The position numbers and the translations under genes were made by a program. Shown piece by piece: positions 36,225-50,993 of a stretch of DNA of 64,000 bases; position 1 is the stretch's first letter, and each line of letters begins with the position of its first letter. Location: assembly GCA_964489065.1 (NCBI GenBank), contig CAZAXH010000007.1:10672-74671 (forward strand), read 5' to 3'. The notes below the pieces were generated by a model, which saw nothing but the letters and a program-made list of their open reading frames with translations, searched no databases and was not told the origin of the DNA. The stretch is from an uncultured Planctomycetales bacterium. Its GTDB lineage: Bacteria > Omnitrophota > Gorgyraeia > Zapsychrales > JANLHA01.

Positions 36225-37850
36225 TCATTGGTTTAAAAGCAACGGAGATCCCCGCCGCATCTTTTTCTGATTCATCCGGATAATCCTGGGCGTCCCATCA
36301 TGACGGGCCGACACGAAAACAAACATCGGATTCTCATTGTCAAAATAGTTCAAATAAATCATTTCCGCGAAACTGTAGCGTTTGGCGATCGGGTCCTGTT
36401 CGCGGAGACGATAGGGGTACATAAAATTCCCCGGGAAATCGTAATCGATGTAAAACGAAAACCCGGGCTGATCGCCCTCCCGCATGATCATCGACTCTAC
36501 GGCTTTGACGAGCTCGCGGCTCGGCGCGTACCACTGGGAGATGCGCCTATTCATGGAGTATACAAGACGACCATTGTGCAGCATCTGCCCCACAATCAAA
36601 ATGATAAAGGCGCACTTTATCGCCCGGGTCAAACGGTCGCTTGGCAGAGCCTCGAAGTTGACGGCCGAATACATAAAAACAACAAGGAAACACCAGATGA
36701 TGTAATGATAGATCACGGTCCCTCCGAGGGCAAAAGCCACTCCCCGCTCCTGCACCCGCGCGGATGAAATAACCGCGCCCCAGCATAAGGCCATACCTCC
36801 CAGTAAAGCCAGGAAGCCCAGCCGTTTTTTAAAGAATTCCCAGGTCCCGCTTCGTACGGCCAAAAATCCCCAACATAAAACAAATAAAGTCCCGAGCCAT
36901 AATTGCCACTCCGAAAAACCCATAACCGGGAAGATATCCTGCCGGTTGGCTAATTCCGCCCGGCCCAGGACATGGATAATTTCATATTTCCCGGGAAAAA
37001 GCGCCGAATAGATCCACCACCCCATGGCGAGAAAGGTGTTCTTGACGATTTGGACAAAATCCGGCAGGCCCGCCCCTTTAACCGGGTGCAGGCGATGGAA
37101 TCCCAGCGCCACATAGTTATATGCGCTGGCAACCATAAAAATGGCCGGGGGGATCAACAACCACAAAGACCGCCAGCGCCCGTGTTCCTTCCAAGAAACA
37201 GTCAAAAACAAATAAACAAAAAATAAAACAGAAAGAACCACACTGATTTCATAAGTCAAGGCGGCCACGGTCATTCCAGCGGACGCGATCATCAAACGGT
37301 GTGTTTGCCGACGTTTTCCTTCCTGATACAGCCATATCTGATTCAGGCTCATCAGGGTCATCATCACCGCCAAAAGAATACTGTTGACCGCGTGCCAGAC
37401 AACCGTTTCCATATTCATAAAAAGAAAAGAAAAATAGCCCGCCATCATAATGGCGAATAAACTGGAGCCGATATTGAGTAAAAGTCTTAATAACATTCCA
37501 ACGATGATCAGGTGCATAACAAGTCCGGTCACCTGCCACAGCACGAAATTATACCCAAAAAAAAACTTCTCTGATCCCATAAGAAAATACGCGCCGGGCC
37601 TGAAGATCAAATAATCCCCCGGGGCAAAAGTCCGGGAGCGCGACCAGTCAAAAGATTGGATAGCCAGGGGAACCCAATCCTGTTTATAAGCCATGTCAGC
37701 CAGATAAAACAGATGATCCGCCCGAGGCATATGGGAAAACGACGGGAAATATATAAGAATATTGCCCGCGACGATCATCAAAAACAGAAAAAAAATCCAT
37801 GTCCGGTTTGCGGTGATTTTCATAAACATCTTGCCCGGGACAGCCCCCAC
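36225..37850 (-). CDS. Polytopic integral membrane protein (at least 12 predicted TM helices), possible GT-C-type glycosyltransferase
   Basis: Long series of hydrophobic helices with short loops. No soluble catalytic motif recognised. The start is ambiguous (MFMKIT or MKIT). Confidence 0.55.
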   Translation of the reverse strand: MGAVPGKMFMKITANRTWIFFLFLMIVAGNILIYFPSFSHMPRADHLFYLADMAYKQDWVPLAIQSFDWSRSRTFAPGDYLIFRPGAYFLMGSEKFFFGYNFVLWQVTGLVMHLIIVGMLLRLLLNIGSSLFAIMMAGYFSFLFMNMETVVWHAVNSILLAVMMTLMSLNQIWLYQEGKRRQTHRLMIASAGMTVAALTYEISVVLSVLFFVYLFLTVSWKEHGRWRSLWLLIPPAIFMVASAYNYVALGFHRLHPVKGAGLPDFVQIVKNTFLAMGWWIYSALFPGKYEIIHVLGRAELANRQDIFPVMGFSEWQLWLGTLFVLCWGFLAVRSGTWEFFKKRLGFLALLGGMALCWGAVISSARVQERGVAFALGGTVIYHYIIWCFLVVFMYSAVNFEALPSDRLTRAIKCAFIILIVGQMLHNGRLVYSMNRRISQWYAPSRELVKAVESMIMREGDQPGFSFYIDYDFPGNFMYPYRLREQDPIAKRYSFAEMIYLNYFDNENPMFVFVSARHDGTPRIIRMNQKKMRRGSPLLLNQ

Positions 37851-37878
37851 TCTACTCCCAAGAGGAGCCTTCTCTCTC

Positions 37879-39303
37879 CTATCGGGATATAGGCCGCTGT
37901 CCTCCTTTTGTTTTTAAGCCGACCAAAGCGTCGTACCCCAATATCATGAGCCGTTTTATAATCAGCACCGGATTATACCCCAGCATCATCTGGATGACAT
38001 GAACAGGATGACGGAAAAAAGTATAAAGATACATGCGAAACGCGAAGCGCGCAAAATTAAAATTCTCTAACCCCTTGCTCACATACACCCGGCGGCCTGA
38101 GGTCGTGCCGGGAAGGAGAGTGTCCTGGATCTCCCCCTTTTTAACCAGTTCATCGTACACAGGAGTTCCGGGCATAGGCTGAAAATACTGTATCCCCAAG
38201 TGATCAAAGTCGCATTTTTTCATCAGCGCTTCGGTCTGGCGGATATCTTTCGTGGTCTCGCCCGGATACCCAATCAAAAATAATCCGATCGACACCAGCC
38301 CCGCGCTCCGGATTTCCCGGGCCTTAGCCGGCCACATATCCGGGTCCAAATCTTTTTTCATGAGTTTCAGCACCCGCCGGGAACCGCTCTCCGGGGCGAC
38401 AACCGCGGTCTTCCATCCGGCGCGCTTCATAAGTTTCAAAGTCTCAAAATCCACCCGCTGCGCACGAATCCCATTGGCCGTGTACATCGTCAATCCCTGA
38501 AAATTCTTTTTGATCAAAGCCTCACAAAAGCTCTTGGTATAATCCGCCTGAAAGGCAAAATTATCATCGATAATATTAACGTGACGCACCTTATATTTAT
38601 AATAAAGCATCGATATCCATTCAATCCCGTAATCCACGGAATGCCGGCGGATCTTATGTCCGTTAATCTGCGGGGCGGTGCAGAATTTACAGCTGTACGG
38701 ACAGCCCCGCGTCATCCAGATCGGCGCGCTGCGACGTGTCCCTGAAAAATAGCGGTACCCTTTACGGTAATATCGTTCCAGTTCAATAGCGTCATAATCT
38801 GGATAAGCGATCGTATCCAAATCCTGCGTGAAGGCCAAAGGATTCGTCATGAACCGGTCGTCTAAACGGTACACCAGGCCAGGGACGCGCAGGAGTTTTT
38901 CTTTATCACGCAGATTCTTTACGAATTCCTGGAAAGTGAACTCCGCTTCACCGGCCAGAATATAATCCGCCTGGCTGTCGCTTAAAGTCTTGGCCGCATA
39001 GGCCGTAGGATGTATTCCGCCCAGGACCGACACGGCTTCCGGAAGATCGTTCTTAACAACCGCCACGATTTTACGGGCTTCCTGATATGTCTTAGACCAG
39101 CAAGAAACCCCCACGACATCCGGGGCGTAATCCTTCAGGAATCGCCGGAAAGAATCTGAATGGGACGGCGCATTATTCAACGTACCGTCAAATATCTTAT
39201 ATTCCACTCCCGGGGCCCGGCAGTTAGATATAATATACCCCAAGCCAAGCGGAATGGAATAAGTGAAATCATTGCCATGCGGCCAAACGAGCGCAACCCT
39301 CAT
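37879..39303 (-). CDS. B12-binding domain / radical SAM protein
   Basis: N-terminal B12-binding-like domain (MRVALVWPHG...VVGVSCWS...VLGGIHPT). Radical SAM CxxxCxxC (GCPYSCKFC). Confidence 0.8.
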   Translation of the reverse strand: MRVALVWPHGNDFTYSIPLGLGYIISNCRAPGVEYKIFDGTLNNAPSHSDSFRRFLKDYAPDVVGVSCWSKTYQEARKIVAVVKNDLPEAVSVLGGIHPTAYAAKTLSDSQADYILAGEAEFTFQEFVKNLRDKEKLLRVPGLVYRLDDRFMTNPLAFTQDLDTIAYPDYDAIELERYYRKGYRYFSGTRRSAPIWMTRGCPYSCKFCTAPQINGHKIRRHSVDYGIEWISMLYYKYKVRHVNIIDDNFAFQADYTKSFCEALIKKNFQGLTMYTANGIRAQRVDFETLKLMKRAGWKTAVVAPESGSRRVLKLMKKDLDPDMWPAKAREIRSAGLVSIGLFLIGYPGETTKDIRQTEALMKKCDFDHLGIQYFQPMPGTPVYDELVKKGEIQDTLLPGTTSGRRVYVSKGLENFNFARFAFRMYLYTFFRHPVHVIQMMLGYNPVLIIKRLMILGYDALVGLKTKGGQRPISR

Positions 39304-39845: not shown

Positions 39846-41282
39846 TTAAAAACTGTACGGGAAACGGAGTTCAAACGTCATATCGGGAGCATCCGTTGTC
39901 AGCCCAACACTAACGGCAAAATCCATGGAAGCCCGTTCACTGAGCGTCCAGTTAAAACCGGTCTTAAAATTAGCCGCGTTTTGAAAAGACCCAGGGACAT
40001 CACGCCCTTCCCGGTTCATTTTGCCGGTCACCGTGTGATCAAAAGAAAAGTTAATCGCTGTCTGATAACTCAAAGCGATGGCCGTGCCCAGGCTGTAGCC
40101 TATGGAATCCCCGGGGTCTACCTCTCCAAAATTCTCGATATCACCGCGCGGAATGTTGTAGGTATAATTAAGGCTCCCAAAAACAACCGCCGGGTCACTA
40201 GCTTTAGCCGCAACCAAGGCGCCACTCACCGCCCAGTGCCCGGTTCCCAAAGCAATATCTGTATTATAGGGTTCATCGCCTGTATTGGATTTGACGGACA
40301 GGCTCGCCACGAGATCAGGCATCATCCCGTGTTCCCACCCGATTTGACGGCTGATGGAAACCTGGATGTCCCCCAGCCCGCCTTTTGAATCAGTCTGATC
40401 ATAGGTCGTGCTGTCCGTGTTGGTAATGCGGTTATATTCAAAGCGGCCCGGGATGCGGACTTCGGTCTGCAGATTATGGAAAAGCCCGTATTTAAACGCC
40501 CAGGTATGGATAAATACGTCTCGTTTGACTTTCTCCGTATTTATGTCTCCCACGACCAGAATAGGAAGGATACTAAAACCATTAATATTAATCCGATTGG
40601 AAGAAAAATGCGCATAAGTTAAGCTCGGTTCAAACTGCAATTTACCTTTCGGAAGAAGGATACCCCCTTTTTGGACAAGCGTCCTCTCAATCGAATCGAC
40701 CCGTTCCTGAGATCCCGCAGCTTCGGTTTCTCCGGGTAAGTCTTCCTGTTTCTTAGAACTTTTCTCTGCAGCAATCGCCGAAGCCAAAAGCATAACATCC
40801 TGGGAAGGAACCGTCATCTTCCCCCCGCCCGGCCACGGAACATCCGATTCGATACCCTTCCCGACAACGACACGATCCAACTCCTCGTCGGTTAAACCAG
40901 TATTATGTTGGTCAACCGCTTCCCGGATTGTCCGACGGACAGCTTCGCGGATTAAGTCCTCATTCAAGGAAACGGCTTCACTCTGTTGAGAAAGCCCCAT
41001 TTCTGAGCTGGCCCCTTCCACCGCCGGGTTCGCTTTCTGAGCCCAAAAAGACTCCACTTCCTTCCGCACGGCTTCCCTGATAAAAGGTTCCATTTGGGCC
41101 AACACTTCGGCGCGCACGGCCCCCTGCATGTCACGGCGGATTTTAGCCGATAGGATGTCGATATCTATCTCGGACCGGGAGGAACGAAAATGAGCAACCA
41201 ACAAGACCGCGACGACCACCACAGCCGCAAATGCCATTATATAAAAGGGATTCTTTCTAAATATCATAATATTCTTTACCAC
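39846..41282 (-). CDS. N-terminally anchored outer-membrane beta-barrel protein with periplasmic helical domain (FapF-like transporter candidate)
   Basis: N-terminal hydrophobic anchor or signal. A helical segment (AEVLAQMEPFIREAVRKEVESFWAQ). A C-terminal beta-rich region with alternating aromatics that ends in ...FELRFPYSF, an OMP-type terminal Phe. Confidence 0.5.
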   Translation of the reverse strand: MVKNIMIFRKNPFYIMAFAAVVVVAVLLVAHFRSSRSEIDIDILSAKIRRDMQGAVRAEVLAQMEPFIREAVRKEVESFWAQKANPAVEGASSEMGLSQQSEAVSLNEDLIREAVRRTIREAVDQHNTGLTDEELDRVVVGKGIESDVPWPGGGKMTVPSQDVMLLASAIAAEKSSKKQEDLPGETEAAGSQERVDSIERTLVQKGGILLPKGKLQFEPSLTYAHFSSNRININGFSILPILVVGDINTEKVKRDVFIHTWAFKYGLFHNLQTEVRIPGRFEYNRITNTDSTTYDQTDSKGGLGDIQVSISRQIGWEHGMMPDLVASLSVKSNTGDEPYNTDIALGTGHWAVSGALVAAKASDPAVVFGSLNYTYNIPRGDIENFGEVDPGDSIGYSLGTAIALSYQTAINFSFDHTVTGKMNREGRDVPGSFQNAANFKTGFNWTLSERASMDFAVSVGLTTDAPDMTFELRFPYSF

Positions 41283-41959
41283 TCATTAGTAAAAATCGTG
41301 GTCCTGAGCTGAAACGGGTTGAAGAAACGTTTAATCGCCCGATAGTCTGTCATACGGATATCGTCCTGGTCTACTTTTAAAGCATAGTCCCCTTTAATTT
41401 CTTGGCCGGGACGCTCAACCACGAACCCGATTCCATTCGTCCACATCGACATAAATTTCTCTTTTTTCATGGTCATGTTTCCGACCGCCGGGTCCGCGAT
41501 GAATACCCTGTCGCCGAAAACGCCCTTAACAACAACAAAATGCCGGTAATTCTTAAATTTAATTGGCACCAGGACCGGTTTCCCCAGGGATTTTAAATAC
41601 TCGAAATCCATCCGGTATCCGGTCACAAGATATCCCCTGGACTGTGCGAATTTTTTTAAATCAAACAATGAAAATCCCTGCCGGGCAATCACCTTGTCCA
41701 AAGGGATAGTATTGAGCATGGAATTAATTATTTCAACTTCAGGGATAGGATCATTCAAGTAGTAATGAAACAGGGTGGCTAAACCGGCCGCGCCGCAGCT
41801 GTAATCCAGGCTTTGTGTTACGACATTTTCCTGCCGGATTTCTTTCAAGCACCGGACTTTCTTGTTAAACCCCATGCCCCCGGCAGAAAAATTGGCCGCA
41901 TGCGCGGCCACCGTAAGGTTCGAGAGGACACACAGACTGAAAAATATTTTCTTTATCAT
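41276..41959 (-). CDS. Standalone periplasmic C39-family cysteine peptidase-like protein (FapD-like)
   Basis: Signal peptide. Catalytic-Cys context typical of C39 peptidase domains (SLDYSCGAAGLATL). Later His and Asp are present (YRHFVVV...DPA). About 227 aa with no ABC-transporter fusion. Confidence 0.65.
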   Translation of the reverse strand: MIKKIFFSLCVLSNLTVAAHAANFSAGGMGFNKKVRCLKEIRQENVVTQSLDYSCGAAGLATLFHYYLNDPIPEVEIINSMLNTIPLDKVIARQGFSLFDLKKFAQSRGYLVTGYRMDFEYLKSLGKPVLVPIKFKNYRHFVVVKGVFGDRVFIADPAVGNMTMKKEKFMSMWTNGIGFVVERPGQEIKGDYALKVDQDDIRMTDYRAIKRFFNPFQLRTTIFTNEW

Positions 41960-42015
41960 TTTTATATTTTAGACAAAATAACGGCGGGATGCAAATGATT
42001 AATACAAGAAAGGGG

Positions 42016-42471
42016 TTAAGGTGCAATCACAAGATTATTGTTGCTGATCACATTACCGGCGATCGTTGAATTGATGATAACATTCAGGTTCAACCCGACC
42101 AAAACATTGCTGCCTGCCGCATTGACATTCACGAGGCTATTGGCGAACTGTTGGGCATAATCCTGCAAATTAATGTAATTAATATCTCCGGACCCCGTAC
42201 TAAAAATAGGGCTAGCCCCTGTGTCCCCGCTAAAAAACAGCGTCGCATCCCCACTTGCGTCCAAGCTGAAATTAAGTTCCGGCGGCATGAATATTTTATC
42301 AAAACTCCCCAAAAAATCATTAAATCCGCTAAAATTAAAACCATGCGCGTAAATTTGATCGAGTTCCTCATCTGACAGGACCACAGCCGTTCCCGCCGCA
42401 AACAGCGAAGAAACGACAGTCATGGAGAAAATAACCGCTGCCATAATCATGAACACATGCTTTCGCACCAT
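42016..42471 (-). CDS. Small secreted protein, paralogue of the giant repetitive protein (FapB-like nucleator candidate)
   Basis: Signal peptide followed by VVLSDEELDQIYA, which matches IALSDSEMDEIAA in the giant protein. N/V/G/S-rich C-terminal strands (NVNAAGSNVLVGLNLNVIINSTIAGNVISNNNLVIAP). GAGGGAGG ribosome-binding site. Confidence 0.5.
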   Translation of the reverse strand: MVRKHVFMIMAAVIFSMTVVSSLFAAGTAVVLSDEELDQIYAHGFNFSGFNDFLGSFDKIFMPPELNFSLDASGDATLFFSGDTGASPIFSTGSGDINYINLQDYAQQFANSLVNVNAAGSNVLVGLNLNVIINSTIAGNVISNNNLVIAP

Positions 42472-42569
42472 ACCGCAGGGCCTCCCTCTTTCCCTAAAAC
42501 ATTTATATACAGTATTCTGTGGGGGAAAAGAAATTCCCTTCCCCCACAGAATATCTGTCCTACTTCTTT

Positions 42570-45038
42570 TTAAAGACCATTCGTCACGTTCGCAACGTTG
42601 GATTGGTTAATCGCACCATTCAAACTACCCGTCGCACTCATAATGTTCGTTTGAACAGACACGCCAGATCCAACAGCGTTTACAGTACTCAACGCGGTGA
42701 TGCCGGCCTGTGAAGATCCGGATAAAATCAACACGTTTTTCTCGCTCTTATTTTGACGATTTGTGTTCGTAACTTCCGCTACGTTTGTGATTGTCTGACT
42801 TGCATCGTTGGTTGTCGCTTCGATGTCTTTTGTTTCAACCGCATTCTCGGTTTTCTCATACTGATCTTTGAACTCATCGTTGTTACGTGCTTGCGCACTT
42901 TCGGAAGCCTGCTCTTCTTCATGGTTAAACGTCGTTGATAAGGCTCCTTCAGCTTCGAAATTGCTCGTGGTTGACAGACTATTTTCATCAGAATGATCCG
43001 TCGTGTCAATCGAGTCGGTCGAAGCGGCAATATCACGAGATGCTGATGTGGATACGGCGTCAGAATCCGTGTACCCGATCGTCAACCCGGATGAAGAGTC
43101 AGATGAATCCGCTTCAGATGCAGAAGCAGAAGCCGCATCATCATACGCCACGTTTAAAGAACCCGAAGCTGTGGTGTCTGTAGAAGAAGCGGATGACGCT
43201 GAATCATTATAAGCAGCATCTACGGAATTAGACGCTGTCGCTTCTGAAGAAGAAGCAGATGACGCAGAGTCATCATAGGCTGCGTTTAAAGAACCGGAAG
43301 CTGTGGTGTCAGCAGAAGAAGCAGCCGACGCAGAATCATTGTACGCAGCATCTACGGAATCAGACGCTGTCGCCTCTGAAGAAGAAGCGGCTGACGCGGA
43401 ATCATTATAAGTTCCATTTAAAGAACCCGATGCTGTTGTTTCTTCCGAAGCAGCGGCAGATTGCTGAGCTTCGTTAGAAGCAGCCGCATTGGCAGAATTA
43501 GACGCAGAATCATTATAAGTCGCGTTCAGATTCCCAGCTTCATTACTGTTAGAGTCTGCAGAACTGGAGCTCGCGGCAGAATCATTGTAAGTCGCAGAAA
43601 GCGCGCCGGAGGCATCCGTACCCTCGGAGCTGGCCGCTGATGTTGACGCTGTGTTGTCTTTGCTGTCATACGTGTCGCTGCTGGAAGCAACGCCTTCAAC
43701 CGTGGTGGTTGAGGTCGCGCAATCTTCGCAGGTGTCCGTGCTCTGGCTATAAGTCCCGTCAAGCGCCTGCGCACTTGTCGTGGTTTCCCCATCCGTGGCC
43801 GATGAACTGGTCGAAGATTCCGATGCCGCGTTGTCAGAATACTGGGCATTGGCATCTAAAGTAGCGGATGTGGCTTCTTCAGCAGCAGCTTCTTGAGAAG
43901 CACTATCCGACGCGGAATAGTCAGCTTCCAGAGAAGCGGCCGTCGCATTATCAGCCTGTGAACTGCTTTGGGATTGAGCGGCTTCACTGGCGCTGGATTC
44001 AGAAGCTGCGCTATCAGAATAGTCAACAGCTACGTCTAAGGACGCATCCGTTGCTTCCTGCGACTGCGAAGCAGCACTATTAGAGGAAGCCGAATCCGCT
44101 GCAAAGGTCGCGGAGGTCGCTTCTTCTGACTGGGCGGCTTCACTGTCAGAATAGTCAACAGCCACGTCTAAGGACGCACTGGTGGCTTCTTGGGATTGCG
44201 AAGCAGCACTATTAGAGGAAGCTGAATCCGCTGCAAAGGTCGCGGAGGTCGCCTCTTCTGCCTGAGCGGCCGCACTGTCAGAATACTGGGCTTCGGCATC
44301 TAACGACGCGGACGTCGACTCGGCCGATTCAGATTCAGCCGTGTGAGCGGCTGACTGTTGAGCCTGTTGATCGTAATCAAACGTCGTGTCATGGGAAGCG
44401 TTGAACTGCGCGTCAGCGCTGTCTGTGGCTGCGGCGTGATCTTCGTTCAAAGTTGAATCAGTGACTTTAGACGCTGCATCAGAAGTAGCAGAGCTTGATC
44501 CAGAAGCGGACGCGTCTAATGTAGCCGATGTAGATTCGGAAGAACTGCTGGCTGCTGAAGACTGCTCGTTGTCATATATTTGGGTATTGTCTTCTTTTTC
44601 CCACAGGTCAGACGTCTTCACTGTGGTTTCTTTTGACCAAGCATTAACCTGATCCTGTTCCACGATATTCGTGGATTTGGTGGTCACGGAATAATCTTCA
44701 GAAGGATTCATGTTAACCACCGCCGCAGTGTTGCTCTGGACCGCCTCCACGTCAGCCTGATCTTCAGAATTACCGACGTTGGTCTGCACGGCAACCGCGC
44801 TGTCCACCGTATTAACAACACTCAATCCTGTTAAATTTTCCTGCGCGCCACTTTCGGATTTGAGTTGATTTTCGCTGAAATAAACATCCTCCACCACATC
44901 GCCTTCAGCGACCACGATCCATTCACCAGCCGCGATTTCGTCCATTTCGGAATCAGAAAGCGCAATGCCTTCTGCGTAACCGGCCACCGGATAGGCGGCG
45001 AACGCCACGGCCAAAATCCAAATTAATAATTTTTTCAT
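42570..45038 (-). CDS. Giant secreted S/A/D/T-rich repetitive protein with conserved N- and C-terminal N/Q/V/G-rich modules (FapC-like amyloid subunit candidate)
   Basis: Start set at MKKLLIWILAVAFAAYPVAGYA with a ribosome-binding site; the track start at 45107 is over-extended. A roughly 650-aa low-complexity core carries 44-aa tandem repeats. The termini resemble the small paralogue (…VNAVGSGVSVQTNIMSATGSLNGAINQSNVANVTNGL). Confidence 0.5.
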   Translation of the reverse strand: MKKLLIWILAVAFAAYPVAGYAEGIALSDSEMDEIAAGEWIVVAEGDVVEDVYFSENQLKSESGAQENLTGLSVVNTVDSAVAVQTNVGNSEDQADVEAVQSNTAAVVNMNPSEDYSVTTKSTNIVEQDQVNAWSKETTVKTSDLWEKEDNTQIYDNEQSSAASSSSESTSATLDASASGSSSATSDAASKVTDSTLNEDHAAATDSADAQFNASHDTTFDYDQQAQQSAAHTAESESAESTSASLDAEAQYSDSAAAQAEEATSATFAADSASSNSAASQSQEATSASLDVAVDYSDSEAAQSEEATSATFAADSASSNSAASQSQEATDASLDVAVDYSDSAASESSASEAAQSQSSSQADNATAASLEADYSASDSASQEAAAEEATSATLDANAQYSDNAASESSTSSSATDGETTTSAQALDGTYSQSTDTCEDCATSTTTVEGVASSSDTYDSKDNTASTSAASSEGTDASGALSATYNDSAASSSSADSNSNEAGNLNATYNDSASNSANAAASNEAQQSAAASEETTASGSLNGTYNDSASAASSSEATASDSVDAAYNDSASAASSADTTASGSLNAAYDDSASSASSSEATASNSVDAAYNDSASSASSTDTTASGSLNVAYDDAASASASEADSSDSSSGLTIGYTDSDAVSTSASRDIAASTDSIDTTDHSDENSLSTTSNFEAEGALSTTFNHEEEQASESAQARNNDEFKDQYEKTENAVETKDIEATTNDASQTITNVAEVTNTNRQNKSEKNVLILSGSSQAGITALSTVNAVGSGVSVQTNIMSATGSLNGAINQSNVANVTNGL
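43151..43480 (-). repeat. In-frame 132-nt tandem repeats (about 2.5 units) inside the giant protein gene
   Basis: The unit beginning CGTTTAAAGAACC(C/G)GAAGCTGTGGTGTC recurs at 43151, 43284 and 43416. It encodes repeats of the type ...ASGSLNAAYDDSASSASSSEATASNSVDAAYNDSAS... Confidence 0.7.
43985..44300 (-). repeat. Second family of in-frame 132-nt tandem repeats (about 2.4 units) inside the giant protein gene
   Basis: The unit containing TCAGAATAGTCAACAGC(T/C)ACGTCTAAGGACGCA recurs at 44014, 44146 and 44278. It encodes ...ATSATFAADSASSNSAASQSQEATSASLDVAVDYSDSEAAQSEE... Confidence 0.7.
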
Positions 45039-45421
45039 TGTTATCCTCTCTTTGACTGCAAGGGCGAAAAGCCAGCTTCGCTTTCCATTAACCCTCTGCT
45101 CACTCACTTATTTTTATTCGCCAAATTCACGTGCCTCGTCCTTCCTAACTATATCCGCGCTCACCTCCTTTCAAATCCTTCACAATAAAAAGACCGGAAC
45201 GAACCAAACCTACTTGGCTCTTTTCCGGGATGACTTTTTTACAAGTTGTCTTTTTCATCAATTTAAGGACCCTGACATGCGACATAAAAAATCGCCCCTA
45301 TTTTAGCAACAAACCAGTTATAAACAATGGCCGCATTTGTTCATCTATTGGAATTTTTTGTCTTGGGCACCCCATAAAAAGGCAGGCCATTTTTTAACAA
45401 AGCAATACTTTTTAGGGGATA

Positions 45422-46288
45422 TTAAAGGCCGGACTCAACCGGCGCAAGTCTGGGATGGATCTTCGGCAAAGTTAAGCGGCGGGACGTTTGACAAACCCGG
45501 TAAAAACCCGGAGTCTGCCCATACGCTTTCTTAAACAATTTACAAAAATACCCTGGATCTTCATAACCGCAGGCATAAGCGATTTCCGTGACAGAGAGGC
45601 TTTTGTTCTGTAAAAGCCGGGAAGCGACTTGCAGGCGAATCCGGTTAAGATATTGGGTAAAACTCGTTTTCAAAACCTTCTTGATTAACCGGCTCAAATA
45701 ATGATAACTCAATCCAGTTTCTTCACAAAGGCTCCGGAGCGAAAGATCCGGGCGATGATAGTTCGCATTAATATAATACGCCACTTTCTCAACAATTTTT
45801 TGCTGGTAACTCATGGCGTTCTCTTTAACGTTGGCGAACTGATTCAGTTCTTGACTTATGTCTGACAAAAAATTTTCCAAAAGGTTAATAATCGCTCTGA
45901 TTTGTTGTTGGCTGAGACGAAAATGAGGAGGCTCCGAAACGAGCAAATAACCAACGATCTGCTGACGGATCTCAATGGGAAGTAAAATTTTGGTAAACCC
46001 GGCCCGGCATTTGTTAATCTGCATTTTCCCGGAACTGGTCGCCTTCTCTATAATAACTGAAATCAAAGAATCACAACCCTCAGTCCGATACTGGCAATCC
46101 GCGTGGGAATCCTGGGCCTCCCCGTACCGGGGTTTATGAGAAGCGGGGGAATAATTGCATTTAAAAATCCGGCCGTCTAATGACCGGATTTCCAAAGTGG
46201 CACCGCATAAGATACAAATAATTTCCTGGATGTGTTTGAACGCCTGAGCTTCTTCAAAATACTCTAAAAGAGTATTAAAGTTCATCAA
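45422..46288 (-). CDS. AraC-family transcriptional regulator with N-terminal Cys-containing sensor domain
   Basis: C-terminal AraC-type HTH (LSVTEIAYACGYEDPGYFCKLFKKAYGQTPGFYR). It lies immediately upstream of, and co-oriented with, the giant repetitive protein gene. Confidence 0.8.
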   Translation of the reverse strand: MMNFNTLLEYFEEAQAFKHIQEIICILCGATLEIRSLDGRIFKCNYSPASHKPRYGEAQDSHADCQYRTEGCDSLISVIIEKATSSGKMQINKCRAGFTKILLPIEIRQQIVGYLLVSEPPHFRLSQQQIRAIINLLENFLSDISQELNQFANVKENAMSYQQKIVEKVAYYINANYHRPDLSLRSLCEETGLSYHYLSRLIKKVLKTSFTQYLNRIRLQVASRLLQNKSLSVTEIAYACGYEDPGYFCKLFKKAYGQTPGFYRVCQTSRRLTLPKIHPRLAPVESGL

Positions 46289-46426: not shown

Positions 46427-47323
46427 TTAATATTGAAAATATATTTTCACTTCTTTAAGATGATGGGTTCCGGATTTCGAGGAAAGGCCCGGAGACAAAA
46501 GAGACTTTTTATTGAGGCAATCCTGGGCGTTCTGGAAATTCTGGCGAAGGCATGCGAGTTGCTGTTCGTGTCCCAGGGCAAAGAGGCCGTTAATAAGTTC
46601 TAAATATTGCATAAAATACTTGGTGGCGGCAAAATAATTCAATTCCACACCCACGGCCGAAGGTCCCGGCGCGAATGTCAGCGTTTTGCGTCCCTGAATG
46701 ATATATTCTTTATCGCCGAGGATCGTGGGGTGAGCAAACCGCGAACATTGCCGGAACATCGCTTCGTATTCCTGGTGGAGTTCGCGGCTGACAAGGCGGG
46801 CCATGTCTTTAACCGTCTTGCCGGACCAGGTCACCAGAGCGCGGTCTGAAACGACATGATATTTTTTCCTGAAATTATCCACATGCTCCAAAACCAAGGC
46901 TTTCTTTTCGGAGAACTCCTGCTGAGCTTCCCGGGACGCGCTTCGCACGGACAATTCTTCTTCGGCCATGGAACGCTTAAAAATAATCCATTTATATTCC
47001 ACAAACCGTCTGGCTTTTTCATCCGCGTTCCGGAGATCATAAATGATATACCGCACCGTGATCAGGTTCTCCAGCAGGCTCCGGATCAGGGAGGAGACAT
47101 CCTGCCCGTACCCGCGTTTGCATAACACCTCAATAGCCGCGAAAGTTTTGACCGCCCGGGTCATAATAAAGAGAAAAATTCGCTTATGCGCCGGAAGATC
47201 AAAAAGTTTAATATTGCGCCTGTTGATATCCTGGAAAAGCGTTCTCCCCAGGTCATGAGCGGCCTTCCCTGCCTGGGTCAGATCAAGACAAGAAATATAA
47301 TTATGATCTTTATTTTTAGTCAT
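46427..47323 (-). CDS. Hypothetical cytoplasmic protein
   Basis: Coding-like composition over about 900 nt. No recognisable motif. Confidence 0.4.
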   Translation of the reverse strand: MTKNKDHNYISCLDLTQAGKAAHDLGRTLFQDINRRNIKLFDLPAHKRIFLFIMTRAVKTFAAIEVLCKRGYGQDVSSLIRSLLENLITVRYIIYDLRNADEKARRFVEYKWIIFKRSMAEEELSVRSASREAQQEFSEKKALVLEHVDNFRKKYHVVSDRALVTWSGKTVKDMARLVSRELHQEYEAMFRQCSRFAHPTILGDKEYIIQGRKTLTFAPGPSAVGVELNYFAATKYFMQYLELINGLFALGHEQQLACLRQNFQNAQDCLNKKSLLSPGLSSKSGTHHLKEVKIYFQY

Positions 47324-48702
47324 AGTCTTGAAGAAAATACGGCCCGGTCAAGATGCCGCTCCAACGGCAAGCCTTCCCACGCCTCTGGTTGTTCCATGCA
47401 TAAATAAACAGGAACGCGGCTGTCATGTTCCCGGATAAAGCTCACCATGCTTTTATATATCTTTTTTCTTACACCCAACTGATACCGCAGTTTTCCGTCA
47501 TAACCCGGCACAAGTTCGCCGAACAGAAGGCGGGACGCCGGGAAACGGGTTTCTATCGCCTGCTGCAGACGCGGCATCATCCGCAAACACCCCAGACTGA
47601 TCCAGACCACCCTTTCTGGAGGAACAAAACTAAACAAACGCCGGATCACATCCCGGTAAGATTCCGCCCACCCCTCGTCATACACGATCGGGTCAAAATG
47701 GAACGACACGCGCCAGCCCCAAGCAGCGCATTTTTGCGCCGCCGCCAGCCGGGCCTCCAAAGGCGCCGTTCCTTGCTCATCACAGGCGGCAATCCGCGCA
47801 GGATTCAGGGACCAACCGACACAAACATTCGGTACGGGCTCTTCTTCCAACAATAAACCTATATTATCACTTTTGGTCTTAAATTCAAAAAACCACTCCG
47901 GGTGCCGCCGCATGAAAGAAACAATGCCCCGGGAATATTGCGTAAAATGATCCAATGCCAAAGAATCGCTGAACTGCCCGCTCCCGATCCGCCAGGGGCC
48001 TCCGTGAGCCTCAAGCCTTTCAAAAAAATCATTAACATTCGCCGGGAGAACGATTCCCGGAGAATTCAGATACCCTTGCATAAAACAATACGTGCAATCA
48101 AACGGGCAGCCCTGTCCTAAATTCAGGACAGCGTACCCGCAGGAAACCGATCCTGGGGAACAGGGGCACGGCTGCCAAAATTGATGCTGTTCCTGAACGA
48201 CAAAAAAGGTTTCCGCCCGCCGGTTATAATCGTCAACGGAATAGGCCTGTTGACGGCAATAATGCTTATACGAAAAAATCGGCTCAATGGCGGCGTCGGG
48301 GGCTAGCCGCCGAAGTCGCCGGACAAGCGGGTCGGTCATTAGCGGTTCTTCCACGAACACCTTTTTCGGCTCCCACCGGCAGGCAACAGGCCCCGACACC
48401 TGCATCCGGCAGGGCTCCGGGATCTTCAGAAAACGCTGCAGGCTTTTTCTTTGAGCCGCGGTCATATTTGGATAACGCCGTTTCGTCAAAAACGCCTTGA
48501 CCTGCCGGAAGGAATCACTGCGTTTGATGGCTTCCGGCAAGACACTCTGGAGATGACAGCCGTCCCTTCTGACAATCTCAAACAAAAGGCGGGAAATTTC
48601 CTGTTTCTTATTCACCCCGAAAGCAGGAAAAACGTCCTCTGTATAACGTTGAATCGTCTGAATCGAAATGCCTCCATCCATTATGAACCCCCTCGCATTC
48701 AT
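47320..48702 (-). CDS. Radical SAM protein, spore-photoproduct-lyase (SplB)-like DNA repair family, with about 190-aa N-terminal extension
   Basis: CxxxCxxC (GCPFDCTYC) in an SPL-like context. ATGA overlap with the upstream aldo-keto reductase gene. Confidence 0.65.
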   Translation of the reverse strand: MNARGFIMDGGISIQTIQRYTEDVFPAFGVNKKQEISRLLFEIVRRDGCHLQSVLPEAIKRSDSFRQVKAFLTKRRYPNMTAAQRKSLQRFLKIPEPCRMQVSGPVACRWEPKKVFVEEPLMTDPLVRRLRRLAPDAAIEPIFSYKHYCRQQAYSVDDYNRRAETFFVVQEQHQFWQPCPCSPGSVSCGYAVLNLGQGCPFDCTYCFMQGYLNSPGIVLPANVNDFFERLEAHGGPWRIGSGQFSDSLALDHFTQYSRGIVSFMRRHPEWFFEFKTKSDNIGLLLEEEPVPNVCVGWSLNPARIAACDEQGTAPLEARLAAAQKCAAWGWRVSFHFDPIVYDEGWAESYRDVIRRLFSFVPPERVVWISLGCLRMMPRLQQAIETRFPASRLLFGELVPGYDGKLRYQLGVRKKIYKSMVSFIREHDSRVPVYLCMEQPEAWEGLPLERHLDRAVFSSRL

Positions 48703-50555: not shown

Positions 50556-50672
50556 TGACAATTAGAAAGGTAAACTATTCGAAAGAATAGGGCGCAAAGC
50601 CGTGAGCCTAAAGCTTCCTTCTGATAAATAGGGGAATGACATGGTTGTCTGGCTACCGTAACCATCCGGTTC
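50556..50672 (+). promoter_or_regulatory. c-di-GMP-I (GEMM) riboswitch aptamer
   Basis: GGTAAACTATTCGAAAGAATAGGGCGCAAAGCCGTGAGCCTAAAGC aligns to the Vibrio cholerae Vc2 aptamer GGCAAACCAUUCGAAAGAGUGGGACGCAAAGCCUCCGGCCUAAACC. The P1b GAAA tetraloop hairpin, the GCAAAGC motif and CCUAAA are all present. A TTGACA -35-like hexamer lies at 50555. Confidence 0.7.
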
Positions 50673-50685
50673 CGTGAAAACATGA

Positions 50686-50716
50686 GCCCTTCGAATCTTT
50701 CGAAGGGCTTTTTTCT
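50686..50716 (+). terminator. Intrinsic terminator forming the riboswitch expression platform
   Basis: GCCCTTCGAA-TCTT-TCGAAGGGC followed by TTTTTT. It lies 14 nt before the downstream ribosome-binding site. Confidence 0.65.
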
Positions 50717-50729
50717 TAAGGAGTGGGGC

Positions 50730-50993
50730 ATGAAAAACGTCTTATGGATACTGCTGGCCGTGACGATCGTGGCCGCCTGCGGCCTAAAAGCTTTCGCCGC
50801 GACGCCAACATCTTCACAGGAATTTAAAATTTCCGTTTATATCCCGGCCATCCCTGGGGTCAACGCCCCCCTGAATCAAATGACGGATGAAACGAGCAAC
50901 GACACAAAAACCGGGGCATCCTTTTACACCATCACGGAAAAACTCCAGGAGAACGGGCAAACGGTGATCCGGGAAACGATCGTGGCCCGATAG
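50730..50993 (+). CDS. Small secreted protein or lipoprotein (87 aa) under riboswitch control
   Basis: AAGGAGTGGGG ribosome-binding site. Signal peptide with possible lipobox (VAACG). The track ORF starts earlier at 50682, inside the terminator. Confidence 0.5.
   Translation: MKNVLWILLAVTIVAACGLKAFAATPTSSQEFKISVYIPAIPGVNAPLNQMTDETSNDTKTGASFYTITEKLQENGQTVIRETIVAR

What the first reader, a model, noticed from the sequence alone, without database searches (positions are those of the whole stretch)
39846..46288. Fap-like functional-amyloid secretion locus: AraC regulator, giant and small paralogous substrates, standalone C39 peptidase, N-anchored beta-barrel OMP
Five co-oriented genes reproduce the core logic of the Pseudomonas fap operon (FapB/FapC substrate pair, FapD C39-like periplasmic peptidase, FapF trimeric beta-barrel with an N-terminal coiled coil). 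The two substrates share a post-signal motif (VVLSDEELDQIYA versus IALSDSEMDEIAA) and N/Q/V/G/S-rich terminal strand repeats (…VNAVGSGVSVQTN…) reminiscent of amyloid repeats. The OMP ends in ...RFPYSF. The peptidase has the C39 Cys context but no ABC-transporter fusion. The locus differs from the canonical operon in gene order (large before small), in lacking recognisable FapA and FapE, in having an AraC regulator, and in a roughly 650-aa S/A/D/T-rich expansion of the major subunit. It may be an undescribed variant of a fibre or amyloid export system in a non-pseudomonad lineage.
Basis: partly seen in the sequence, partly recalled or inferred. Interest (0 to 1): 0.85.

Follow-up and report, generated by a model that had tools for sequence, protein, structure and literature searches.

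The report
FapD/FapF-type secretion cassette, new cargo
An Omnitrophota bacterium carries an outer-membrane export pair related to the Pseudomonas amyloid exporter, but its two cargo proteins are an unrelated, unannotated family that has a bacteriocin-style cleavable leader right after the normal signal peptide, which suggests what this kind of periplasmic protease recognises.

Summary
The five co-oriented genes exist as described. The 227-aa protein is a signal-peptide-bearing standalone C39 peptidase with Gln/Cys/His/Asp intact. The 478-aa protein's barrel aligns end to end with the FapF crystal structure (E 8e-32). Both are FapD/FapF homologues but score far below the curated equivalog cut-offs.

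The two 'substrates' are not Fap subunits. Profile-profile comparison with FapA/B/C/E from 80 genuine fap loci gives probability <=0.1%, against 96.9% for the FapB-FapC control.

They belong to a large unannotated family (340 clusters at 50% identity) built as Sec signal peptide, then L-[ST]-D-x-E-[LM]-D-x-[IV]-x-A-G, then variable region, then a 60-70-aa repeat module. The motif matches the double-glycine (C39) leader register (-12, -8, -7, -4, small -2/-1).

In 82 sources (80 distinct loci and the window) from several phyla the order big cargo, small cargo, C39, FapF-like OMP recurs. All 113 leader hits among 6,860 ORFs lie upstream of the peptidase on its strand. None occurs in 6,635 ORFs of true fap loci.

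Best reading: a two-step secretion cassette in which the periplasmic peptidase removes the leader and the barrel exports the cargo. Amyloid is untested. I rate it a new variant of a known kind.

The parts
45422..46288 (-). AraC/PocR-type transcriptional regulator (288 aa), probable dedicated regulator of the cassette in the window's group of loci
   Evidence: Pfam HTH_18 1.4e-24, HTH_AraC 2.2e-19, PocR sensory domain 1.7e-05. A homologue is adjacent to the cassette in about 15 Omnitrophota-type loci, either upstream of the big cargo or directly downstream of the OMP.
42570..45038 (-). Big cargo (822 aa from the ATG at 45038; the listed ORF extends to a GTG at 45107): signal peptide, leader, N-terminal module, 640-aa acidic S/A/T/D-rich repeat core, C-terminal module
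   Evidence: ORF. Start codon and ribosome-binding site. No Pfam or NCBIfam family. Homologues sit in the same position in related loci.
44925..44960 (-). Double-glycine-type leader of the big cargo, LSDSEMDEIAAG (residues 50-61 of the 845-aa ORF); predicted cleavage after Ala60-Gly61
   Evidence: Leader HMM score 25.8 bits. Consensus and register. Published C39 recognition rules in PMC6363468.
44712..44852 (-). N-terminal copy of the repeat module in the big cargo (about residues 86-132; ...LTGLSVVNTVDSAVAVQTNV...)
   Evidence: bigC-module HMM hit, 19.6 bits. 38 of 49 big cargo proteins have two copies.
42783..44702 (-). Acidic low-complexity core with 22/44-aa repeats (residues 136-775), probably a disordered spacer
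   Evidence: Composition and net charge -104. Tandem repeats of 66 and 132 bp.
42573..42776 (-). C-terminal copy of the repeat module in the big cargo (about residues 778-845; ...AGITALSTVNAVGSGVSVQTNI...NQSNVANVTNGL)
   Evidence: bigC-module HMM hit, 69 bits.
42016..42471 (-). Small cargo (151 aa): signal peptide, leader, short variable region, one C-terminal module
   Evidence: ORF. Homologues. Profile searches find 711 clusters at 90% identity and 340 at 50% identity. A homologue lies directly upstream of the peptidase in 67 sources.
42343..42378 (-). Leader of the small cargo, LSDEELDQIYAH (residues 32-43), followed by Gly44. The cleavage point is ambiguous: P1 would be His, or Gly if shifted by one residue
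   Evidence: Leader HMM score 32.3 bits. Motif invariant in homologues. The AlphaFold model puts a helix at residues 34-42.
42031..42198 (-). C-terminal module of the small cargo (about residues 92-147; ...AQQFANSLVNVNAAGSNVLVGLNLNVIINSTI...)
   Evidence: smallC HMM 61.7 bits and bigC HMM 31.1 bits. hhalign of big against small modules gives probability 98%.
41276..41959 (-). Standalone periplasmic C39 cysteine peptidase (227 aa) with a Sec signal peptide (...TVAAHA|AN); FapD/FilB homologue
   Evidence: Pfam Peptidase_C39 6.8e-22, 78 bits against a cut-off of 22. NCBIfam FilB 1.3e-39 and FapD 3.2e-34. Gln49, Cys55, His140 and Asp156 are invariant in 20 homologues and align with the catalytic residues of LahT150, 6MPZ.
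39846..41282 (-). FapF-like outer-membrane transporter (478 aa): N-terminal hydrophobic segment, helix-rich periplasmic region, barrel at residues ~206-478
   Evidence: NCBIfam FapF 1.5e-43. PDB FapF 5O65/5O67 E 8e-32 over residues 206-478, including the C-terminal FPYxF. Adjacent to the peptidase in 79 of 82 sources.
40860..40895 (-). Leader-like motif inside the OMP's periplasmic region, LTDEELDRVVVG (residues 130-141); possible docking or cleavage site for the peptidase
   Evidence: Regex hit at a conserved position in 11 of 79 OMPs, all in Omnitrophota-type loci, and in 0 of 80 FapF. HMM score is weak at 6.5 bits.

Best explanation
This is a two-step (Sec, then outer-membrane) secretion cassette built on a FapD/FapF-type pair, and it exports a cargo family unrelated to Fap amyloid subunits. 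Shown: the big and small cargo each have an N-terminal signal peptide followed at once by L-[ST]-D-x-E-[LM]-D-x-[IV]-x-A-G. The next gene encodes a signal-peptide-bearing C39 peptidase with an intact catalytic set. The next encodes a FapF-homologous barrel. This four-gene order recurs across phyla. Inferred: after Sec export and signal-peptide removal, the remaining ~14-16-residue propeptide forms the short amphipathic helix that C39 peptidases bind, with hydrophobic residues at -4, -7 and -12. The periplasmic peptidase cuts after the small -2/-1 pair (Ala60-Gly61 in the big cargo). The unfolded, leaderless cargo is then threaded out through the FapF-like barrel. More speculative: outside the cell, the 60-70-aa terminal modules associate with one another. 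The big cargo has one at each end of a long acidic spacer and the small cargo has one, so they could build a surface fibre or matrix, with the small protein acting as primer, cap or anchor. An AraC/PocR-type regulator controls the operon in this group of loci. A leader-like motif in the OMP's own periplasmic region may dock the peptidase or be cleaved by it.
For: Peptidase: Pfam C39 6.8e-22; FapD 3.2e-34 and FilB 1.3e-39; Gln49/Cys55/His140/Asp156 invariant and aligned to LahT150. OMP: FapF HMM 1.5e-43; FapF crystal sequences 8e-32 end to end, and these are the only PDB hits. Synteny: in 82 sources fetched by peptidase similarity, the OMP follows the peptidase in 79 and a small-cargo homologue precedes it in 67. 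Unbiased clustering finds only these four gene families widely conserved. Leader: consensus from 109 unique sequences fits the published Leu-12/Glu-8/Leu-7/Val-4 plus small P2/P1 rule (PMC6363468). 113 hits of 6,860 ORFs are all upstream of the peptidase on its strand, with a median start at residue 30. A model trained only on Omnitrophota-type loci finds 17 hits in 15 held-out loci of other phyla, with 0 off-target in 5,314 ORFs. There are 0 hits in 6,635 ORFs of true fap loci. AlphaFold puts a helix on the motif and no confident fold on the mature part. Modules: big and small classes are homologous (98%); two copies in 38 of 49 big cargo proteins; arrays of 11-19 copies in leader-bearing proteins, one of which (P0248) sits in the same kind of cassette.
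Against: No cleavage or secretion has been shown; everything after gene content is inference. The window's small cargo has His, and its close relatives Gln, at the predicted P1 position, which should be a small residue. Isolated leader segments match no curated double-glycine leader model, apart from one marginal hit at E 0.028. The leader HMM was trained on the same loci; the held-out test keeps its specificity but is far less sensitive. Both structure predictions were low-confidence, so the OMP coiled coil, the trimer and any cargo fold are unverified. In Pseudomonas, the one studied relative, FapD's substrate is still unknown and Fap proteins lack canonical C39 sequences.
Confidence: 0.6

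Rival explanations
1. One reading: a divergent but genuine Fap-type functional-amyloid operon, in which the big and small proteins are FapC/FapB analogues that form amyloid fibres.
For: FapD and FapF homologues are present. There is a large and small pair sharing an N/Q/S/G/V-rich module with a VNxNAAGS core that loosely resembles Fap repeats. The monomer has no confident globular fold.
Against: No hit to the FapA/B/C/E models, although those models work on a real operon. Module HMMs find nothing in 80 fap loci. hhalign probability is <=0.1%, against 96.9% for FapB against FapC. No PDB match, FapC fibril and curli entries included. The repeat unit is 60-72 aa, not 37 or ~22 aa. Most of the big protein is a highly acidic Ser/Ala/Thr spacer. 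There are no FapA or FapE counterparts.
Confidence: 0.15
2. The motif is a docking or chaperoning tag and is not a cleaved leader, or the peptidase's real substrate is the OMP itself: cutting the periplasmic region at its internal leader-like motif would activate or gate the channel.
For: Rouse et al. raised FapF-linker cleavage by FapD as a possibility, and some C39-like domains bind substrates without cutting. The window OMP carries LTDEELDRVVVG at residues 130-141, conserved in position in 11 OMPs from Omnitrophota-type loci. His or Gln at the predicted P1 of the small cargo fits poorly with cleavage.
Against: The catalytic Gln/Cys/His/Asp are invariant across the family, which argues for an active protease. 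The OMP motif is absent from 68 of 79 OMPs that still have leader-bearing cargo upstream, and it scores weakly. Cargo leaders are far better conserved.
Confidence: 0.15
3. A bacteriocin or toxin export locus: the double-glycine leader marks antimicrobial peptides processed by a C39 peptidase.
For: C39 peptidases and double-glycine leaders are classically tied to bacteriocins. One leader segment weakly matches a cyanobacterial bacteriocin family (E 0.028).
Against: The peptidase is not fused to an ABC transporter and is periplasmic. Cargo proteins are 130 to over 1,200 aa, repetitive and carry Sec signals. No immunity-like conserved gene is present.
Confidence: 0.04
4. The OMP is a COG4313/Phenol_MetA_deg-type uptake channel for hydrophobic compounds and is only fortuitously next to the other genes.
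For: Pfam Phenol_MetA_deg hit at 6.8e-11, above the gathering score. FapF and COG4313 channels share a fold.
Against: The match to FapF is much stronger (149 against 43 bits), and PDB hits are FapF only. The OMP follows the peptidase in 79 of 82 sources across phyla. C39 peptidases have not been reported next to COG4313 uptake channels.
Confidence: 0.03

Closest known systems
Pseudomonas Fap functional-amyloid secretion system (fapABCDEF), specifically the FapD peptidase and FapF transporter pair
   Same: Sec-exported substrates, a periplasmic standalone C39 peptidase and a FapF-homologous outer-membrane barrel encoded together. Co-localised fapD/fapF homologues outside Proteobacteria were already noted in the literature.
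   Different: The cargo is unrelated to FapB/FapC/FapE, and there is no FapA or FapE. The gene order is cargo, cargo, D, F. The cargo has an explicit C39-type leader, which Fap proteins lack. Peptidase and OMP score at 36% and 21% of the FapD and FapF equivalog cut-offs. An AraC/PocR regulator is attached.
Double-glycine leader peptides processed by C39 domains of AMS/PCAT ABC transporters (e.g. LahT, ComA, PCAT1)
   Same: Same protease family and catalytic residues. Same leader register: Leu-12, Glu-8, Leu/Met-7, Val/Ile-4 and small residues at -2/-1.
   Different: Here the leader follows a Sec signal peptide and would be read in the periplasm, not the cytoplasm. The protease is not fused to an ABC transporter. 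Export would go through an outer-membrane barrel. The P2/P1 pair is usually Ala-Gly or Ala-Ala, not Gly-Gly. Cargo proteins are large and repetitive, not small peptides.
Acinetobacter Fil 'putative pilus system' (FilB C39 peptidase, FilC)
   Same: FilB is the best-scoring curated model for the peptidase (1.3e-39), and FilC also matches the OMP (2.2e-16).
   Different: Scores are far below the cut-offs (136 against 475, 60 against 630). The system is mechanistically uncharacterised in the searchable literature. I could not retrieve Fil cargo sequences for comparison.
Curli (CsgA/CsgB with the CsgG channel)
   Same: The general logic of a major subunit plus a minor related subunit exported unfolded across the outer membrane.
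   Different: No homology to any curli component. The channel family is different. The repeat unit is 60-72 aa against ~22 aa.

Membership tests
Fap functional-amyloid system | FapF outer-membrane transporter | tested here: met
   Homology is clear: FapF HMM 1.5e-43, and PDB FapF 8e-32 over the whole barrel. It is not an equivalog, though: 149 bits against a cut-off of 700.
Fap functional-amyloid system | FapD periplasmic C39 peptidase | tested here: met
   FapD HMM 3.2e-34, signal peptide present, catalytic residues present. Below the equivalog cut-off (118 against 330), and FilB scores slightly higher.
Fap functional-amyloid system | FapB/FapC amyloid subunits with Fap repeats | tested here: not met
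   No NCBIfam FapB/FapC hit at E<=1, with the positive control working. Module HMMs give 0 hits in 80 fap loci. hhalign probability <=0.1%.
Fap functional-amyloid system | FapE and FapA accessory proteins | tested here: not met
   No matches. Neighbourhood clustering finds no further conserved component.
Fap functional-amyloid system | Trimeric FapF with an N-terminal periplasmic coiled coil | tested here: inconclusive
   The single-sequence model predicts long helices at residues 12-83 and 98-125, but mean pLDDT is only 36. Relatives in other phyla show a short heptad-like segment. Oligomeric state cannot be tested here.
Fap functional-amyloid system | Product forms amyloid fibres | not testable with these tools
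   The monomer model is low-confidence and no amyloid predictor or experiment was available.
Peptidase family C39 | Papain-like fold with Gln oxyanion residue and Cys/His/Asp catalytic residues | tested here: met
   Pfam 78.2 bits against a cut-off of 22. Gln49, Cys55, His140 and Asp156 are invariant and aligned to LahT150.
Peptidase family C39 | N-terminal fusion to an ABC transporter (the usual context) | tested here: not met
   A 227-aa standalone protein with a Sec signal peptide, as in FapD.
Double-glycine (C39) leader peptides | Leu-12, Glu-8, Leu-7, hydrophobic -4, small residues at -2/-1 | tested here: met
   Big cargo: L50, E54, M55, I58, A60-G61. The family consensus agrees with the published rule. 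For the small cargo, P1 would be His43, so the rule is only partly met.
Double-glycine (C39) leader peptides | Recognised by curated leader or bacteriocin models | tested here: inconclusive
   Nine leader segments were scanned. There was one marginal hit, to the CTB bacteriocin family at E 0.028.
Double-glycine (C39) leader peptides | Leader at the extreme N-terminus of a cytoplasmic precursor | tested here: not met
   The motif starts at about residue 30, after a Sec-type signal peptide.
Acinetobacter Fil putative pilus system | FilB and FilC equivalogs | tested here: not met
   FilB 136 bits against a cut-off of 475, and FilC 60 bits against 630.
COG4313 / Phenol_MetA_deg uptake channels | Barrel of this superfamily acting in uptake of hydrophobic compounds | tested here: inconclusive
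   The Pfam domain is matched (43 bits against a cut-off of 22), but FapF is much closer and the gene context is secretion-like. Direction of transport cannot be tested here.

The most novel reading that the evidence does not exclude
A widespread, undescribed outer-membrane secretion route found in at least six phylum-level lineages, in which a double-glycine-type leader placed behind a Sec signal peptide serves as a periplasmic targeting and activation signal. It would be read and removed by a FapD-type C39 peptidase at a FapF-type translocon. The exported proteins would self-assemble through a new 60-70-aa repeat module into surface fibres. The same logic, seen weakly in FapE's post-signal segment, could explain the long-unknown substrate of Pseudomonas FapD.
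Probability: 0.35. Interest if true: 0.75.

Novelty: new variant of a known kind. Interest (0 to 1): 0.62.

Why it matters
FapD is essential for Fap secretion, yet its substrate and recognition sequence have been unknown since 2017. Co-localised fapD/fapF homologues in other phyla were noted only as a gene pair. In this cassette and its relatives the probable substrates and their recognition motif can be read directly from the sequence. That gives a concrete, easily tested model for how periplasmic C39 peptidases work with FapF-type barrels. It also defines a large unannotated cargo family and a new repeat module found in Omnitrophota, Acidobacteriota, Geobacter/Thermodesulfobacteriota, Verrucomicrobia, Armatimonadota and Pseudomonadota. 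Finally, it warns against annotating such loci as 'Fap amyloid' operons on the strength of the D/F pair alone.

Tried and rejected
1. Direct BLAST of the two cargo proteins found only the leader (E 0.056). Family profiles were needed to show the shared module.
2. The word-index search with the small cargo alone gave only 6 homologues. A profile of diverse members was needed.
3. AlphaFold of the small cargo with 67 sequences gave mean pLDDT 56.7, so no fold search was attempted.
4. AlphaFold of the OMP without an alignment gave mean pLDDT 36 and is unusable.
5. Cargo was compared with Fap subunits by NCBIfam, HMM search and hhalign. All were negative.
6. The cargo profile and a multi-module protein found nothing meaningful in the PDB. 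Pfam on the multi-module proteins gave only a weak DUF4830 signal with no passing stretch.
7. FapE's post-signal segment (KPIELKDSEMAELRGRY) aligns in register with the leader, but only at hhalign probability 12.8% and a leader-HMM score of 2.5 bits. I kept it as a lead, not a finding.
8. Leader segments scanned against curated models gave one marginal hit.
9. Rfam found nothing in the locus. Promoter and terminator scans were no better than shuffles.
10. The downstream B12-radical-SAM gene and the 541-aa membrane protein were considered as cargo-modifying enzymes. I rejected them as core parts because they are absent downstream in the syntenic relative L001 and in the clustering.
11. Literature searches for the system, COG3271 and FilB found no description.

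Full report
**Observation.**
- AraC-type regulator, 45422-46288
- 845-aa ORF, 42570-45107
- 151-aa ORF, 42016-42471
- 227-aa ORF, 41276-41959
- 478-aa ORF, 39846-41282, ending RFPYSF

The 845-aa ORF most likely starts at the ATG at 45038, which has a GAGAGGA ribosome-binding site. That gives 822 aa, the length found in the closest relative. The quoted motifs and the S/A/D/T-rich expansion are real. Residues 136-775 are 24% Ser, 21% Ala, 11% Thr and 10% Asp, with net charge -104 and 22/44-aa repeats.

**The two machinery genes.** The 227-aa protein has a Sec-type signal peptide.
- It matches Pfam Peptidase_C39 (6.8e-22, above the gathering score), NCBIfam FilB (1.3e-39) and FapD (3.2e-34).
- Gln49, Cys55, His140 and Asp156 are invariant in an alignment of 20 homologues.
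- They align with the catalytic residues of the double-glycine protease LahT150, its closest solved relative.

The 478-aa protein matches the FapF model (1.5e-43).
- Residues 206-478 align end to end with the crystallised FapF barrel (E 8e-32), down to the C-terminal FPYxF. FapF entries are its only PDB hits.
- Both proteins are homologues, not equivalogs: 118 bits against a cut-off of 330, and 149 against 700. A genuine Pseudomonas-type operon scores 420 and 764.

**The cargo is not Fap.** Neither upstream protein hits any Pfam or NCBIfam family.

I fetched 80 genuine fap loci, using the FapF barrel sequence printed. I extracted FapA-F from them. NCBIfam recognises all six above cut-off in one such operon.

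Against these:
- HMMs of the cargo modules find nothing in 6,635 ORFs.
- hhalign probabilities against FapA/B/C/E are <=0.1%, while the FapB-FapC control gives 96.9%.
- A cargo profile finds no PDB relative.

So the defining subunits of a Fap system are absent. There is also no FapA or FapE counterpart.

**What the cargo is.** The peptidase family is large. An alignment of it recovered 400 loci from the species-genome collection, of which 80 were kept. The nearest loci are Candidatus Omnitrophota MAGs, so the window is from that phylum. Others are Acidobacteriota (Edaphobacter, Granulicella, Tunturiibacter), Geobacter/Thermodesulfobacteriota, Verrucomicrobia, Armatimonadota and Pseudomonadota.
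- In 79 of 82 sources the FapF-like OMP follows the peptidase.
- In 67 sources a homologue of the small cargo lies directly upstream.
- Unbiased clustering of neighbouring ORFs finds only four widely conserved families: OMP, peptidase, small cargo and big cargo.

Cargo proteins share one architecture:
1. A signal peptide.
2. The motif P-L-[SNT]-D-x-[AEQ]-[LM]-D-x-[VI]-x-A-[GA] (consensus of 109 unique sequences).
3. A variable region.
4. A conserved module of the type AQQxLxxLVNVNAAGSxVxVxxN...

Big-class proteins usually carry the module twice, once just after the leader and once at the C-terminus (38 of 49). The big and small modules are homologous (hhalign 98%, E 2.9e-13).

An exhaustive profile search finds 340 clusters at 50% identity (220 at E<=1e-10). 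Where a source gives a name it is 'hypothetical protein', and none has a Pfam domain.

Some members carry the same leader followed by 11-19 copies of the module spaced 60-72 aa apart. One of them, P0248, lies in another Omnitrophota genome upstream of a C39 peptidase and a Phenol_MetA_deg-family OMP gene. Between them sit a 1000-aa gene and a 130-aa ORF that I did not test.

**The motif as a C39 leader.** Suppose cleavage follows the A-[GA] pair. The conserved residues then fall at -12 (Leu), -11 (Ser), -8 (often Glu), -7 (Leu/Met), -4 (Val/Ile) and -2/-1 (small).

[quoted passage not shown] The cut site is Gly-Gly, Gly-Ala or Gly-Ser, and 13 leader residues are sufficient (PMC6363468).

The window's big cargo fits exactly: L50, S51, E54, M55, I58, A60-G61|E62. 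After signal-peptidase cleavage, about 16 residues of propeptide would remain.

The AlphaFold model of the small cargo is otherwise low-confidence. It places a helix on residues 34-42, which is where the leader helix should be.

Specificity is high:
- 113 HMM hits at iE<0.01 among 6,860 six-frame ORFs. All lie on the peptidase strand and upstream of it, starting at a median of residue 30.
- No hit at that threshold in 6,635 ORFs of true fap loci.
- A model trained only on Omnitrophota-type loci finds 17 hits in 15 held-out loci of other phyla, with no off-target hit in 5,314 ORFs.

Caveats:
- The window's small cargo has His at the predicted P1, and its close relatives have Gln. Its cut site may be shifted by one residue, or it may be bound without being cut.
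- Curated leader models do not recognise the segments, apart from one marginal hit.

**Mechanism.** Shown: the gene content, the homologies, the conserved order, and the position and register of the motif.

Inferred:
1. Sec export.
2. Leader recognition and removal by the periplasmic C39 peptidase.
3. Export of the unfolded cargo through the FapF-like barrel.

This parallels the model for Fap. There FapD's catalytic Cys is required for secretion, but its target is unknown and Fap proteins lack canonical C39 sequences.

More speculative is the fate of the cargo. The module forms arrays within single chains, and the big cargo has one copy at each end of a long acidic spacer. That suggests module-module association and head-to-tail assembly into a surface fibre or matrix. 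The one-module small protein could then act as primer, cap or anchor.

Nothing here tests amyloid. The 60-72-aa unit is unlike the 37-aa Fap repeats or the ~22-aa curli repeats.

**Regulation and extras.** An AraC/PocR-type regulator stays next to the cassette in about 15 Omnitrophota-type loci. It lies upstream of the big cargo in most and directly downstream of the OMP in four, which supports a dedicated role.

The window's OMP carries a leader-like LTDEELDRVVVG at residues 130-141 of its periplasmic region. The motif is conserved in position in 11 OMPs from Omnitrophota-type loci and absent from all 80 FapF proteins. Its HMM scores are weak. It recalls the published speculation that FapD may cut FapF's linker.

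**Comparison and novelty.** The locus works like the FapD/FapF part of the Fap system and is homologous to it. It fails the Fap membership test on the subunits and accessory proteins. Its leader follows the rules of AMS/PCAT substrates, but in a new setting: behind a Sec signal, read in the periplasm, and coupled to an outer-membrane barrel.

The literature available to me notes fapD/fapF pairs in five further phyla without describing cargo. I found no paper describing this cargo family or leader. That library lacks most papers from subscription journals, so a published description cannot be ruled out.

I rate it a new variant of a known kind, of moderate to high interest, mainly because it turns an open question about FapD-type peptidases into a simple experiment.

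Noticed in passing
window 50559-50660 (+), ORF 50682-50993 (+): A c-di-GMP-I riboswitch (60.4 bits, E 2.5e-09) lies just upstream of a small ORF. From an internal Met, that ORF encodes a signal-peptide-bearing protein of about 86 aa with no known family. A similar small gene lies at the matching position in the syntenic relative L001.
   Followed up: partly
window 51018-53774 (-): A 918-aa signal-peptide-bearing protein with weak SdrD_B and CarboxypepD_reg-like domains at its C-terminus lies convergent with the riboswitch-controlled ORF. It may be another surface or outer-membrane protein.
   Followed up: partly
L083 6851-7600 and the other fap loci L082-L161: In genuine Pseudomonas-type FapE, the segment right after the signal peptide (KPIELKDSEMAELRGRYVMPG) aligns in register with the cargo leader: Leu-12, Asp-10, Glu-8, Met-7, Leu-4, Gly-2. 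Support is weak (hhalign probability 12.8%, leader HMM 2.5 bits). FapE is the Fap protein reported to lose its N-terminus, so this may mark the FapD site.
   Followed up: partly
window 40860-40895 (-), OMP residues 130-141: A leader-like motif, LTDEELDRVVVG, lies inside the periplasmic region of the FapF-like OMP. It is conserved in position in 11 OMPs from Omnitrophota-type loci and absent from 80 FapF proteins. It could be a docking or self-processing site for the peptidase.
   Followed up: partly
window 36225-39303 (-): Immediately downstream of the OMP are a B12-binding radical SAM enzyme (474 aa) and a 541-aa multi-pass membrane protein with no Pfam family. They are not found downstream in the syntenic relative L001, so they are probably unrelated to the cassette, but a cargo-modifying role was not excluded.
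   Followed up: partly
window 46427-48702 (-): An SPL-family (spore photoproduct lyase-like) radical SAM gene overlaps the start of a DUF5677 gene, just upstream of the AraC regulator. A DUF5677 homologue keeps this upstream position in 15 loci, which is unexplained.
   Followed up: no
L163 1-4795: In the Omnitrophota genome that carries the multi-module cargo, a gene whose product is 4,154 aa with no Pfam hit runs into the locus just upstream of the cassette.
   Followed up: no
L162 699-1861: The multi-module cargo P0318 is preceded by a PilZ-domain gene (weak hit) and a response regulator of the GerE type. This hints at c-di-GMP or two-component control of these cassettes in other lineages.
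   Followed up: no
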